A DNA stretch of 40,629 nucleotides from a virus (taxonomy: Duplodnaviria > Caudoviricetes). Positions within the stretch are counted from its first letter, which is position 1, and every line of letters starts with the position of its first letter. The DNA lies in the IMG/VR virus record IMGVR_UViG_3300005512_000094, positions 1 through 40,629 of that record. The stretch is one strand, 5' to 3'. The position numbers and the translations under genes were made by a program. This document shows positions 34,322-40,629 of the stretch, piece after piece. The notes below the pieces were generated by a model. That model worked only from the letters and a program-made list of their open reading frames with translations. It searched no databases and was not told where the DNA came from.

Positions 34322-34350
34322 TTGACTATATAGTGCATAGGGTATATAAT
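34322..34350 (+). promoter_or_regulatory. sigma70-type promoter TTGACT-N17-TATAAT; predicted start ~34356-34357
   Basis: Direct read; the predicted start coincides with the 5' end of the structured RNA. Confidence 0.85.
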
Positions 34351-34356
34351 ATACCT

Positions 34357-34597
34357 ATCGTTCATCAGAGGAAACTCTGACGCAAGTAAGTCGCGGAACG
34401 GAGCCGTTCATCCTATGTTAGAATTATTTTTACTTGCCAAACAACCCGATATTCCTTGTATTCACATCAAGGAAGTTATTCAGGTTGTGAGAGAAGCTAA
34501 AAATGTTTCTAAAAAAGAAAAAAGAAGAATCATTCATAGAATTGAAATAAATTCTTCTTGTAAAAACTCATAGGACGCAAACGACTGAAGGAACGAC
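34357..34597 (+). ncRNA. Glutamine (glnA-type) riboswitch-like double aptamer, unit A
   Basis: CGTTCA-[TCAGAG GAAA CTCTGA]-CGCAAGTA-AGTCG-CGGAACG, then CGTTCA-[TCCTATG...CATAGGA]-CGCAAA-CGACT-GAAGGAACG. Resembles the glnA motif core CGUUCAUC...GACG.AAGUA...GAAGGAACG with an AGUA/GAA E-loop. Confidence 0.7.
34415..34573 (+). CDS. 52-aa ORF nested in a riboswitch P2 loop (MLELFLLAKQPDIPCIHIKEVIQVVREAKNVSKKEKRRIIHRIEINSSCKNS)
   Basis: Manual translation; ATG and TAG lie in the two paired strands TCCTATG/CATAGGA; below the ORF-track size cutoff. Confidence 0.6.
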   Translation: MLELFLLAKQPDIPCIHIKEVIQVVREAKNVSKKEKRRIIHRIEINSSCKNS

Positions 34598-34603
34598 TGA
34601 AGG
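34580..34603 (+). repeat. 12-bp tandem duplication AACGACTGAAGG x2
   Basis: Direct read, at the boundary between units A and B. Confidence 0.9.
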
Positions 34604-34605
34604 AA

Positions 34606-34627
34606 ACACTTTTATAAATAAAAGTGT
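34606..34627 (+). promoter_or_regulatory. Canonical T4 late promoter TATAAATA (34613-34620) within the inverted repeat ACACTTTT/AAAAGTGT
   Basis: Direct read; predicted start ~34627, immediately before the CGTTC of unit B. Confidence 0.75.
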
Positions 34628-35233
34628 ACGTTCATCCCATCAGATAATGAGGCAGTGCTCTAAATGTTCTGAATATAAACCTTTATCTTCTTTCTACTCT
34701 CAAAGGAAAGTATGTAAAGAGTGTTATAACAAGTCCCGCAAGGATAAGTATAACGGTGATAAAGAATTTAGAATTAAACGAGCAAAACAAATTCAACAGT
34801 ATAAAAGTGAGAGGGAATCATCTGATAGTGAATTCTATTTAAGAAAGCATCTATCAAGAAGAATTAGACAAACTTTGGTAAAACAGGGTGAATCTAAAAT
34901 TCTCTTCAATCAATACGGTATTGATGTAAACTCAATATTGTTGAATATTGGAGAAAGACCTTCTCCAGATTATCATTTAGATCATATTCTTCCAGTTTCT
35001 GCCTTTGATTTTACAGACCCATTTCAAGTATGGGCTTGTAATCATAAAGATAATTTAATGTGGTTAGATTCTAAAAAGAATATAGAAAAAAGTGATAAAC
35101 ATTCTCCAGAAGATCTTTTAAAGTATCTGCAAGAGATGAAATCTGAATGGGACGCAAGTAGAGCATAAGGGAACGGTACGTTCGGAAAGGAAATCATCTC
35201 AACCTTTCTGCGTTCTATGCTCCAAGGAACGGG
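34628..35233 (+). ncRNA. Second glnA-like double aptamer, unit B, with the HNH ORF in its P2 loop
   Basis: CGTTCA-TCCCATCAGAT...ATCTGAATGGGA-CGCAAGTA-GAGCATA-AGGGAACG, then CGTTC-GGAAAGG..CCTTTCT-GCGTTC-TATGCTC-CAAGGAACG. Confidence 0.6.
34647..35168 (+). CDS. HNH-family endonuclease with an N-terminal C4 zinc finger
   Basis: CSKC...CKEC, basic helical linker, YHLDHILP...NHKDNL..L...NIEK (beta-beta-alpha-metal motif). Confidence 0.8.
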   Translation: MRQCSKCSEYKPLSSFYSQRKVCKECYNKSRKDKYNGDKEFRIKRAKQIQQYKSERESSDSEFYLRKHLSRRIRQTLVKQGESKILFNQYGIDVNSILLNIGERPSPDYHLDHILPVSAFDFTDPFQVWACNHKDNLMWLDSKKNIEKSDKHSPEDLLKYLQEMKSEWDASRA

Positions 35234-35294
35234 AACTCGGATCACCCTACGGGGTTAAAGGAGAAAAAACTACCCATTCTTTTAGGAGTCAATC

Positions 35295-35462
35295 ATGAAC
35301 ACACTTACTATCATCAAAAGGCAAATCGAAAAGAAAGCACGTCTGCATGATGCTCAGATTCACATCACCAAATATCGTGGTGTTGATTATGATACTCGTT
35401 GTGTAGAAAGCAAAGAACCTCACGGTACTTTCTGCTATCGTGGTCTTTCATATAGCAAATGA
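35295..35462 (+). CDS. 55-aa DUF4278-like peptide (two YRG motifs)
   Basis: Manual translation MNTLTIIKRQIEKKARLHDAQIHITKYRGVDYDTRCVESKEPHGTFCYRGLSYSK; AGGAG RBS; DUF4278 genes are known to follow glutamine riboswitches in picocyanobacteria. Confidence 0.75.
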   Translation: MNTLTIIKRQIEKKARLHDAQIHITKYRGVDYDTRCVESKEPHGTFCYRGLSYSK

Positions 35463-35469
35463 GGCAATT

Positions 35470-35565
35470 ATGGAAGCACTACAAACTGCAGGGTTAATTA
35501 CCTTGGGATGTGTGACCATAATGTCTTTGTTCTATGGTGAAATCGTTCTTCTTAAGAGAGGTTGA
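35470..35565 (+). CDS. 31-aa hydrophobic peptide (MEALQTAGLITLGCVTIMSLFYGEIVLLKRG)
   Basis: GAGG RBS, one predicted transmembrane helix, ends at the terminator. Confidence 0.55.
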   Translation: MEALQTAGLITLGCVTIMSLFYGEIVLLKRG

Positions 35566-35582
35566 GAAACCTCTCTTTTTTT
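35554..35582 (+). terminator. Rho-independent terminator
   Basis: AAGAGAGGTT-GAGA-AACCTCTCTT followed by a T-run. Confidence 0.85.
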
Positions 35583-35713
35583 ATATTTAAGTAACAAAGA
35601 CACAAATGTTAGTGAATTAACACAAACTTGTATAGATAGTATAGAATTAGGAAAAAGCATATGAAGTGAAAATCATGCTTTTGTTATAAACATATTAAAT
35701 TGCGGGAGATGAG

Positions 35714-39323: not shown

Positions 39324-39648
39324 TTTTTTTAATTCTGAAATTATTCAAGAGGCACTAGAAGAAATTAATAATCTTCAAGAAAAAATTTATGGCACTGCCA
39401 TGCATTTTGGTACTATGTCTCAAGAAGAAAAATTAGAGCATATTGATATGATGACTAATCTTTTGGAAAAACAAAGGATTATGTACACTCGATTATCTCT
39501 TTCCGATGATCCTGCCGCAGTTGAAATGAAAGAGAATCTCAGAAAGTCTGTTGTTCTGATGGGATTCCCACCGAATACGGACATGAACACACTGTTCTCA
39601 ACCATGGAAAAAACTGTCCAATCTCTCAAGGACTATATTGACGCTTGA
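39316..39648 (+). CDS. Conserved cyanophage protein (DUF1825-like)
   Basis: FF.SEI.Q, KQ..MY.RLSLSDDP.A..MK motifs. Confidence 0.7.
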   Translation: MSDFFNSEIIQEALEEINNLQEKIYGTAMHFGTMSQEEKLEHIDMMTNLLEKQRIMYTRLSLSDDPAAVEMKENLRKSVVLMGFPPNTDMNTLFSTMEKTVQSLKDYIDA

Positions 39649-39666
39649 GGGCAACCTTGCTATAAT
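39638..39666 (+). promoter_or_regulatory. sigma70-type promoter TTGACG-N17-TATAAT for gene 32
   Basis: Direct read. Confidence 0.8.
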
Positions 39667-39711
39667 ATCAAAGTCAATCCGACAAAATCTAACTAATCCG
39701 AGGTAATCCGA

Positions 39712-40629
39712 ATGTCTTTTGCTGATCTTAAGAAGCAATCTAAACTGGGCTCCCTGACTGCCAAACTGGTCAAGGAAGTCGAAAAAATGAATACCAACAG
39801 TTCCGGCGACGAGCGTCTGTGGAAACTGGATGTTGATAAGAGTGGTAATGGTTATGCCGTTATTCGCTTTCTCCCTGCTCCCAACGGTGAAGATCTGCCG
39901 TTTGTGAAGCTGTACTCTCATGCCTTCCAAGGTTCTGGTGGATGGTACATTGAGAACTCCCTGACTACTCTGGGACAAAAGGATCCCGTGTCTGAGTACA
40001 ATACCACTCTGTGGAATAACGGTACGGATGCCGGTAAAGAACTGGCACGTAAGCAGAAGCGTAAGCTGACTTATGTCTCTAACATCTATGTGGTGAAGGA
40101 TCCTGCTAATCCTGAGAACGAAGGCAAGGTATTCCTGTATAAGTACGGTAAGAAAATCTTTGATAAGATTACCACTGCTATGCAACCTGAGTTCGAGGAC
40201 GAGGAAGCAATCGATCCGTTCGACTTCTGGCAAGGTGCCAACTTCAAGCTGAAGGCAAAGAACGTGGCAGGTTATCGTAACTATGACTCTTCAGAGTTTG
40301 CCGCAGTCTCTGCTCTTCTGGACGACGATGAGGCAATGGAAGGTATCTGGAAGAAACAGTACTCTCTTGAAGAGTTTGTTGCTCCCGATCAATTCAAGTC
40401 CTATGATGATCTGAAGAAGCGTCTGGATTATGTCCTTGGTAATAAGGGCACTCCTAAGTTTCAGGATCAGGAGACTATCGAGGAAGAAGAAGAGTTTCGC
40501 GCACAGAATCGTGGAGACTCCAATCCCGTGCCTCAATCCATGAAGAATGAACTAGATTCTTTGAGTGAGGGACGTGACTTCAACAGTCCTGACATCACTA
40601 ATTCTTCTAGTGAAGATGAGGATGATGCA
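39712..40629 (+). CDS. gp32: Single-stranded DNA-binding protein gp32, 3'-truncated (absent from the ORF track because there is no stop codon in the window)
   Basis: Manual translation MSFADLKKQS...DERLWK..DKSGNGYAVIRFLP...GGWYIENSLTTLG..DPV...GKVFLYKYGKKIFDKI; acidic tail. Confidence 0.95.
   Translation, partial: MSFADLKKQSKLGSLTAKLVKEVEKMNTNSSGDERLWKLDVDKSGNGYAVIRFLPAPNGEDLPFVKLYSHAFQGSGGWYIENSLTTLGQKDPVSEYNTTLWNNGTDAGKELARKQKRKLTYVSNIYVVKDPANPENEGKVFLYKYGKKIFDKITTAMQPEFEDEEAIDPFDFWQGANFKLKAKNVAGYRNYDSSEFAAVSALLDDDEAMEGIWKKQYSLEEFVAPDQFKSYDDLKKRLDYVLGNKGTPKFQDQETIEEEEEFRAQNRGDSNPVPQSMKNELDSLSEGRDFNSPDITNSSSEDEDDA

What the first reader, a model, noticed from the sequence alone, without database searches (positions are those of the whole stretch)
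34405..34595. A complete 52-aa ORF fills an aptamer loop, with its start codon paired to the stop-codon region
Seen: TCCTATG (34411-34417, contains the ATG) is the exact complement of CATAGGA (34569-34575, contains the TAG). The ORF therefore runs from one strand of P2 to the other. Together with the HNH case, two of the four aptamer-like repeats carry protein cargo in the same loop, while the other two have short loops (GAAA; 12 nt). Inference: the P2 loop is a cargo slot. Aptamer folding would sequester the start codon, and translation would melt the aptamer, giving regulation of a gene inside the riboswitch instead of downstream of it.
Basis: partly seen in the sequence, partly recalled or inferred. 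Interest (0 to 1): 0.8.

Follow-up and report, generated by a model that had tools for sequence, protein, structure and literature searches.

The report
Gene nested inside phage glutamine riboswitch
In this ocean cyanophage, one hairpin of a likely glutamine-sensing RNA switch closes around a conserved 52-codon protein gene, so nitrogen sensing and translation would compete on one RNA, and a mobile endonuclease cassette sits right behind it with its own recoded copy of the switch.

Summary
Observation confirmed. The 7-bp arms (34411-34417 / 34569-34575) enclose ORF 34415-34573. It is a real gene of a T4-like cyanomyovirus family: 124 of 134 modules from ORF-neutral searches carry it, 188 of 193 long loops keep frame, dN/dS is about 0.2, and two Cys are invariant. 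The 'four aptamers' are two interlocked doublets: a glutamine-I aptamer with a second, circularly permuted one in its P3 loop (8 of 8 P1 swaps fit nesting). The best-supported switch turns ON the downstream DUF4278 (IF17-like) gene through a covarying anti-SD helix. Glutamine repression of the internal ORF is inferred only (about 50%). Full AUG/CAU pairing is not conserved (56 of 193); the ORF's SD lies in the inner P1 loop. The HNH is no ordinary cargo: 34596-35231 is a mobile cassette (96-100% identical between hosts with 56-65% flanks) that inserts at the aptamer's 3' end and brings a recoded riboswitch.

The parts
34322..34350 (+). sigma-70-type promoter (TTGACT-17-TATAAT, 11 of 12); inverted repeat around the -10 box (34339-34356)
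   Evidence: similar promoter before 123 of 203 modules by my pattern
34359..34363 (+). module 1 outer P1, 5' strand (C1 of outer pocket); pairs with 34591-34595
34365..34380 (+). outer P2 (P2a), short hairpin with GAAA loop; in relatives a slot for a paralogous ORF
34381..34393 (+). outer J2/3 (G22, C23, E-loop AGUA) and 5' strand of the shared P3 (AGTCG)
34396..34409 (+). inner, circularly permuted P1 hairpin; its loop holds GGAG (34400-34403), the likely SD of the nested ORF
34411..34575 (+). inner P2 (P2b): 7-bp stem closing around the ORF
34415..34573 (+). nested 52-aa gene, divergent member of the cyanomyovirus T4-GC430 / phrog_504 family; predicted two-helix hairpin, invariant C15 and C49
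34576..34595 (+). inner J2/3, 3' strand of P3 (CGACT), E-loop GAA, outer P1 3' strand; in cassette-free relatives also the anti-SD and the ORF's last codons. The next base is A, not the conserved linchpin G
34596..35231 (+). 636-bp mobile HNH cassette carrying a recoded double aptamer (module 2)
34606..34627 (+). T4 late-promoter motif TATAAATA (34613-34620) in a perfect inverted repeat (motif identity recalled)
34647..35168 (+). HNH / endonuclease VII-like gene (173 aa) in the outer P2 of module 2; last codons encoded by the aptamer strand
35153..35231 (+). module 2 core: E-loop, recoded P3 (GAGCATA / TATGCTC), inner P1 hairpin, short P2b, anti-SD CTCC, outer P1 3' strand
35280..35288 (+). 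SD region of the DUF4278 gene, predicted to pair with the module 2 anti-SD without ligand
35295..35462 (+). DUF4278-like (IF17-like) gene, phrog_545; predicted ON target of the riboswitch
   Evidence: (E 4.4e-5, 24.2 bits, just under the 25.3 cut-off)
35554..35585 (+). intrinsic-terminator-like hairpin closing the unit

Best explanation
The stem closes around a conserved protein gene and is one arm of an interlocked double RNA fold that likely senses glutamine, is predicted to switch on the downstream IF17-like (DUF4278) gene, and would at the same time dampen translation of the nested gene. Shown by sequence and comparison: (1) the nested fold, with outer P1, P2a, E-loop and a shared P3 whose loop holds a circularly permuted second junction; (2) the nested ORF is a selected gene; (3) an anti-SD helix between the aptamer's 3' strand and the DUF4278 ribosome site covaries; (4) a GGAG in the inner P1 loop goes with the presence of the ORF; (5) the HNH cassette is mobile and inserts at one fixed point. 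Inferred: without glutamine the anti-SD helix forms and outer P1 is open, so DUF4278 is off while ribosomes load on the nested ORF, most easily before the 3' arm of P2 is transcribed. With glutamine both pockets fold, DUF4278 is released, and the SD bases (G59/G60 of the inner pocket) and the first base of AUG are locked. A translating ribosome would melt the aptamer. In this genome the cassette has cut module 1 off from DUF4278 and removed its outer linchpin G. Module 1 would now mainly serve the 52-aa gene, and the recoded module 2 would control DUF4278. The protein is predicted to be a disulfide-closed helical hairpin behind a short hydrophobic N-terminus, likely a small membrane-associated or exported binding protein (weak, about 35%).
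For: Gene: ORF in P2b in 124 of 134 ORF-neutral modules; 188 of 193 loops a multiple of 3; ATG at offset 4 in 189 of 193; dN/dS 0.21-0.24, pN<pS in 74 of 77 disjoint pairs; C15 and C49 invariant in 118 sequences; annotated as T4-GC 430 in S-SM1 and S-SM2. Nesting: all 8 G-C to C-G swaps in P1 link the first half's 3' strand to the second half's 5' strand; nested outer P1 P>0.5 in 49 of 50, inner in 37 of 50, tandem in 0 of 50; RNAalifold agrees; P3 changes on both strands between variants. Pocket: C1, G22, C58, G59 and a C23-G60 linchpin in 202 of 203 outer and 201 of 203 inner junctions, the residues named in PMC6698751 and PMC11477058 (passages). Switch: A variant always faces T (43 of 43 parsed), G variant faces C 107 or T 42; 18 independent pairs, 11.4 same way, 0 opposite, median p 0.001; anti-SD helix P>0.5 in 41 of 45; opening the DUF4278 site costs 7.5 vs 3.2 kcal/mol free vs aptamer-folded (medians of 23); ON logic as in gifB (PMC6212724 passages). 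SD: GGAG in 115 of 124 modules with the ORF vs 1 of 10 without.
Against: No binding, reporter or translation data. Pairs 6-7 (U, G of AUG) are paired in only 78 and 72 of 193, about what composition gives; pair-4 covariation fails the independent-pairs test (1.3 same way, 6.7 no change). The ORF's start region costs about 11 kcal/mol to open even without ligand (13 in this genome) and 8 on a nascent chain (6 here), so the folding results do not show a glutamine-dependent difference. P3 in the tested register has P>0.5 in only 7 of 50, and RNAalifold pairs the inner J2/3 into a helix extension, so the inner pocket may not bind. L486/L487/L490 carry the ORF with its own SD inside the loop, and the paralogous outer ORFs have no SD (0 of 48). 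G22, C58 and G59 were partly required by my parser; the SD contrast is not corrected for kinship. Rfam scores the window only 25 bits (cut-off 35).
Confidence: 0.55

Rival explanations
1. The riboswitch is real and controls only DUF4278; the nested gene is a real but unregulated passenger in a loop that tolerates insertions, translated co-transcriptionally whatever the glutamine level.
For: AUG pairing beyond the A is not conserved and pair-4 covariation is not significant; some alleles have their own SD inside the loop; loops can be empty (10 of 203), hold either paralogue, or hold an HNH; the opening cost drops on the nascent chain.
Against: ATG is held at one offset (189 of 193) and the SD sits on bases that form the inner ligand pocket, which a free passenger would not need.
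Confidence: 0.3
2. The nested ORF works as a coupling device: its ribosome runs over the aptamer's 3' strand and stops on the anti-SD, opening the DUF4278 site, so translation gives a second, glutamine-independent way to turn DUF4278 on (not exclusive of the best reading).
For: In 183 of 193 homologues the stop codon lies inside the anti-SD, and its only common variant (TGA/TAA) stays a stop; P3 length variants differ by 3 nt.
Against: In 7 of 193, including this genome, the stop is in the P2 arm; 10 modules have no ORF; the protein's own sequence is conserved (two Cys, helical pattern), so it is more than a leader peptide.
Confidence: 0.12
3. The ORF is a chance open frame in an RNA loop and the stem is a chance match.
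For: No proteomic record found; no Pfam or PDB match. The window allele vs its nearest cassette-free relative L125 shows 3 synonymous and 4 conservative non-synonymous codon changes, too few to test.
Against: dN/dS about 0.2, frame kept in 188 of 193, invariant Cys pair, 347 family representatives at E<=0.001; the window ORF matches the family profile at E 2.7e-12 (it is part of that profile).
Confidence: 0.03

Closest known systems
Glutamine-I riboswitch (glnA RNA motif, Rfam RF01739), e.g. the Synechocystis gifB/IF17 leader (PMC6212724)
   Same: Three-way junction with P1, P2, E-loop, P3; pocket residues C1, G22, C58, G59; long-range 23-60 pair; lies before a DUF4278 gene; predicted translational ON switch by release of the ribosome site.
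   Different: Phage-encoded; two junctions share one P3 with the second circularly permuted; linchpin is C23-G60; P2 loops hold whole genes; the aptamer's 3' strand is also coding; Rfam scores it below cut-off.
Glutamine-II (Downstream-peptide) riboswitch, RF01704 (PMC6698751, PMC2864571)
   Same: Same binding core with a C-G long-range pair (C19-G41); short ORF and DUF4278 association in marine picocyanobacteria.
   Different: Pseudoknot instead of E-loop junction; its short ORF lies downstream, not inside a stem.
Tandem glnA RNAs (PMC2864571 passage) and phage glnA hits (S-CREM1, PMC9964418; Melnitz, PMC9004378)
   Same: Glutamine aptamers in pairs, and in marine myoviruses.
   Different: The passages I read describe tandem occurrence or Rfam hits only, not nesting, nested genes or a mobile cassette.
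Homing endonuclease genes in loops of group I introns, free-standing HNH genes of T4-like phages, and integrative elements that restore the tRNA end they interrupt (all recalled)
   Same: Endonuclease gene parked in a peripheral RNA loop, late-promoter motif, insertion at a conserved site, lateral spread, a decayed copy.
   Different: The host RNA is a riboswitch, not a ribozyme; nothing points to splicing; the damage would be made good by bringing a recoded riboswitch.

Membership tests
Glutamine-I riboswitch (RF01739) | Three-way junction P1/P2/P3 with E-loop | tested here: met
   Outer junction in the nested fold; the inner junction lacks the E-loop
Glutamine-I riboswitch (RF01739) | Pocket residues C1, G22, C58, G59 | tested here: met
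   (partly required by the parser); residues from PMC6698751 passage
Glutamine-I riboswitch (RF01739) | Long-range 23-60 linchpin pair | tested here: met
   C23-G60 in 202 of 203 outer and 201 of 203 inner junctions; broken (C-A) at this window's module 1 outer junction, intact in module 2 outer
Glutamine-I riboswitch (RF01739) | Rfam gathering score (35 bits) | tested here: not met
   25 bits, E 0.29, on half of module 1 only; the model cannot span the inserts
Glutamine-I riboswitch (RF01739) | 5' of a nitrogen-related / DUF4278 gene with an expression platform | tested here: met
Glutamine-I riboswitch (RF01739) | Binds L-glutamine and switches expression | not testable with these tools
   needs in-line probing, ITC, reporter
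Glutamine-II riboswitch (RF01704) | Pseudoknot architecture without E-loop | tested here: not met
   no RF01704 match at E<=1; E-loop junction present
Cyanomyovirus small protein T4-GC430 / phrog_504 | Sequence family with two invariant Cys, same position in the module | tested here: met
   101 of 118 aligned members hit phrog_504 but the window protein alone does not, so it is a divergent member
Homing endonuclease element | HNH-type nuclease motifs | tested here: met
   phrog_1035 endonuclease VII E 2e-17, phrog_2255 HNH E 5e-5; alignment
Homing endonuclease element | Present/absent alleles, fixed insertion site, lateral spread | tested here: met
Homing endonuclease element | Cleaves the cassette-free allele and spares the recoded copy | not testable with these tools
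   needs a cleavage assay

The most novel reading that the evidence does not exclude
Cyanomyoviruses run a two-output glutamine switch in which one binding event turns a gene inside the aptamer off and an IF17-like glutamine synthetase inhibitor downstream on, and a homing endonuclease has evolved to cut this conserved riboswitch and spread by delivering a recoded, cleavage-proof replacement with its own gene hidden in the P2 loop: a selfish element whose host and shield is a riboswitch.
Probability: 0.4. Interest if true: 0.9.

Novelty: new variant of a known kind. Interest (0 to 1): 0.78.

Why it matters
Riboswitches are taken to be non-coding leaders that act on the gene behind them. Here a whole selected gene sits inside an aptamer stem and its last codons are the aptamer's own strand, in a layout present in roughly 1000-2000 viral contigs (estimates) that Rfam misses. 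It gives a direct, testable handle on how cyanophages read host nitrogen status and perhaps inhibit glutamine synthetase, and it implies that riboswitch scans miss aptamers with long coding loops. The HNH cassette adds a way for a selfish nuclease gene to be harmless without an intron: bring a replacement regulatory RNA.

Tried and rejected
Tandem (side-by-side) topology: rejected (0 of 8 swaps, 0 of 50 folds). Full AUG/CAU pairing as the conserved mechanism: rejected. snoR160 and GNAS-AS1 Rfam hits elsewhere in the window: chance. Function of the nested protein: no Pfam hit of weight, no Foldseek match at E<=0.001 in PDB or BFVD, ESM Atlas gave only unnamed clusters (query was relative L136). 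Whether the family is ever free-standing: unresolved. 84 of 150 profile hits end in an aptamer-coded tail and several of the other 66 end in other frames of it, but I could not fetch DNA for the distant ones. Cellular genomes: 7 of 122 pattern loci parse as modules; the four whose titles I saw are MAG contigs (three from non-cyanobacterial bins, one 194-kb contig in a Synechococcus bin) and look like phage DNA; the scan stopped at 50 of 64 parts. RNA runs: contigs from 4 RNA libraries cover parts of the region, including the ORF subfamily in X1 and X3, the cassette, and cassette-free joins, but contigs cannot show transcription, strand or level and I laid no silent control. No proteomics or ribosome-profiling record of this gene turned up (listings and passages only). 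44 of 323 loci gave no full parse and were dropped before the counts; one outer loop (L036) is a misparse.

Full report
Setting. The window is a fragment of a T4-like cyanomyovirus: the region matches 385 Synechococcus, Prochlorococcus and cyanophage records, neighbours are thyX and cyanophage core genes, and the record is a 40.6-kb virus contig. The finding lies in a short unit from a sigma-70-type promoter (34322-34350, 11 of 12) to a terminator-like hairpin (35554-35577).

Observation. The 246-nt region folds with z = -5.29 and the stem is in the minimum-energy structure. Only 1 of 34 window genes tested has such an arm pair.

The ORF is a real gene. I gathered 323 loci: 120 by the aptamer's 3' motif, 80 by the downstream protein, 120 by a junction-plus-ATG pattern, 2 annotated phages and the window. 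They gave 203 unique modules; 44 loci gave no full parse, many cut by contig or flank ends. In the two searches that did not ask for an ATG, 124 of 134 modules carry the ORF in the inner P2. Loop length is a multiple of three in 188 of 193, and the ATG is at offset 4 in 189 of 193. Among 190 unique ORFs dN/dS is 0.21-0.24 in all identity bands, and pN<pS in 74 of 77 disjoint pairs. Two cysteines are invariant in 118 aligned proteins. S-SM1 and S-SM2 annotate the gene as hypothetical T4-GC 430. Usually the frame runs through the aptamer's 3' strand and stops in the P3/E-loop strand (183 of 193); in 7, this genome among them, a TAG in the P2 arm ends it earlier. The outer P2 is a second slot: 48 modules have a 150-300-nt loop, 46 unique ORFs from them give dN/dS 0.16, and they are homologous to the inner family (hhalign 93.7%, E 1.9e-7). 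AlphaFold gives a helical hairpin (helices 15-27, 33-46; pLDDT 82) with no significant fold match. A disulfide and an export role are my inference.

The RNA is a nested doublet. The E-loop of a glutamine-I aptamer needs AGUA from the first half and GAA from the second, and the P3 strands also come one from each half. Where P1 changes from G-C to C-G, the change is always in the first half's 3' strand together with the second half's 5' strand (8 of 8 in the 132 modules of the two informative sets), on about 7 separate branches of a weak tree. Folding of 50 random modules gives nested outer P1 in 49, inner in 37, tandem in 0, and RNAalifold on 9 loop-free modules agrees. P3 differs on both strands among variants and between cassette lineages, though it is weak in plain folding (7 of 50). 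The residues that contact glutamine in the solved structures (PMC6698751 and PMC11477058, passages) are kept in both junctions, and the linchpin is C23-G60 as in the type II structure. Part of this was required by my parser; positions 23 and 60 were free. Binding is not shown.

What it switches. Behind every downstream-anchored locus with enough DNA lies the aptamer's 3' end, and the gene is DUF4278-like, the family that glutamine riboswitches turn on in cyanobacteria (PMC6212724, passages). The aptamer's 3' strand is complementary to the bases at that gene's SD. The A variant always faces T (43 of 43 parsed) while the G variant faces C or T (107, 42), and this holds on independent pairs (median p 0.001). 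With the ribosome site included, the anti-SD helix forms in 41 of 45 and outer P1 is lost; forcing the aptamer lowers the cost of opening the site from 7.5 to 3.2 kcal/mol. This is the best-supported switch.

Is the nested gene regulated? For: its SD-like GGAG lies in the inner P1 loop on G59/G60 and goes with the ORF (115 of 124 vs 1 of 10, not kinship-corrected), and the start is held at one offset. Against: the U and G of AUG pair in only 78 and 72 of 193, pair-4 covariation is not significant on independent pairs, the start is costly to open even without ligand, some alleles have an SD inside the loop, and outer-slot ORFs have no SD. I put repression by glutamine at about 50%.

The HNH cassette. 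34596-35231 holds a late-promoter motif in a hairpin, and a recoded double aptamer with the HNH gene in its outer P2. In 17 viral loci found by the protein and 17 by the recoded RNA motif (largely the same contigs) every complete copy starts right after the host aptamer's last P1 base (13 of the 17 show the left end). In the 10 complete copies from other host lineages the cassette is 96-99% identical to the window's while the upstream ORF is 56-65% and the downstream DNA 57-74% identical. L125 is the cassette-free allele of this ORF subfamily, L339 has lost most of the HNH (94% over 216 bases), L479 is a diverged cassette at the same site with a compensated P3, and L488 has a 52-58% relative in the P2 of a single aptamer. 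Insertion removes G60 of module 1's outer pocket, the only such case among 203 modules, and module 2 is predicted to pair with the DUF4278 SD. Homing by cleavage of the empty allele is inferred.

What is known. Glutamine riboswitch hits in cyanophages and related myoviruses and tandem glnA RNAs are in print (PMC9964418, PMC9602691, PMC9004378, PMC2864571; passages; a three-term supplement search of PMC2864571). My ten searches showed no description of nesting, nested genes or the cassette, but most results were seen only as listings, the library lacks subscription journals, and Ames and Breaker 2011 and Ren 2015 were not held. The scan's own notes hold 50 findings of the nested ORF in at least 49 other genomes; I had reached this reading before looking (notes 14, 34) and count them as no support. 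Three look-ups for the cassette found nothing.

Verdict. Interest 0.78.

Noticed in passing
window 34339-34356 and the same place in relatives: An inverted repeat overlaps the -10 box just before the riboswitch: 5 bp or more in 162 of 200 modules vs a mean of 28 after shuffling. Its sequence varies but the symmetry is kept; could be an operator or a cruciform/hairpin promoter element.
   Followed up: partly
window 34596-35231; L324-L335, L339, L479, L488: Mobile HNH cassette that inserts at the riboswitch's 3' end and carries a recoded riboswitch; L339 has an internal deletion of the HNH and a doubled promoter hairpin.
   Followed up: yes
L004, L008, L012, L017 and others (outer P2 loop): A paralogous 65-70-aa ORF with a signal-peptide-like start sits in the outer P2, about 10 nt from the first aptamer base and without an SD, so it would be translated from a very short leader.
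   Followed up: partly
L486, L487, L490 (inner P2): Alleles in which the nested ORF has its own GGAGG SD inside the loop, downstream of the stem.
   Followed up: no
L269, L272, L279, L305, L307: Variants whose two P3 strands are the same near-palindromic 8-mer, suggesting the nested doublet arose by duplication of one aptamer and strand exchange.
   Followed up: no
L030, L042, L329, L480 (upstream of the inner P1): Modules whose first half is replaced by another ORF ending right before the second CGTTC; possibly a further mobile gene inserted in the riboswitch.
   Followed up: no
window 35233-35270: An optional hairpin element between aptamer and DUF4278 SD is present in some alleles (outer P1 end about 66 nt from the start codon) and absent in others (about 40 nt).
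   Followed up: no
window 39598-40629: No long table-11 ORF with ATG is listed over the last kilobase on the minus strand although it looks coding (probably the T4 gp32 region, recalled); not examined.
   Followed up: no
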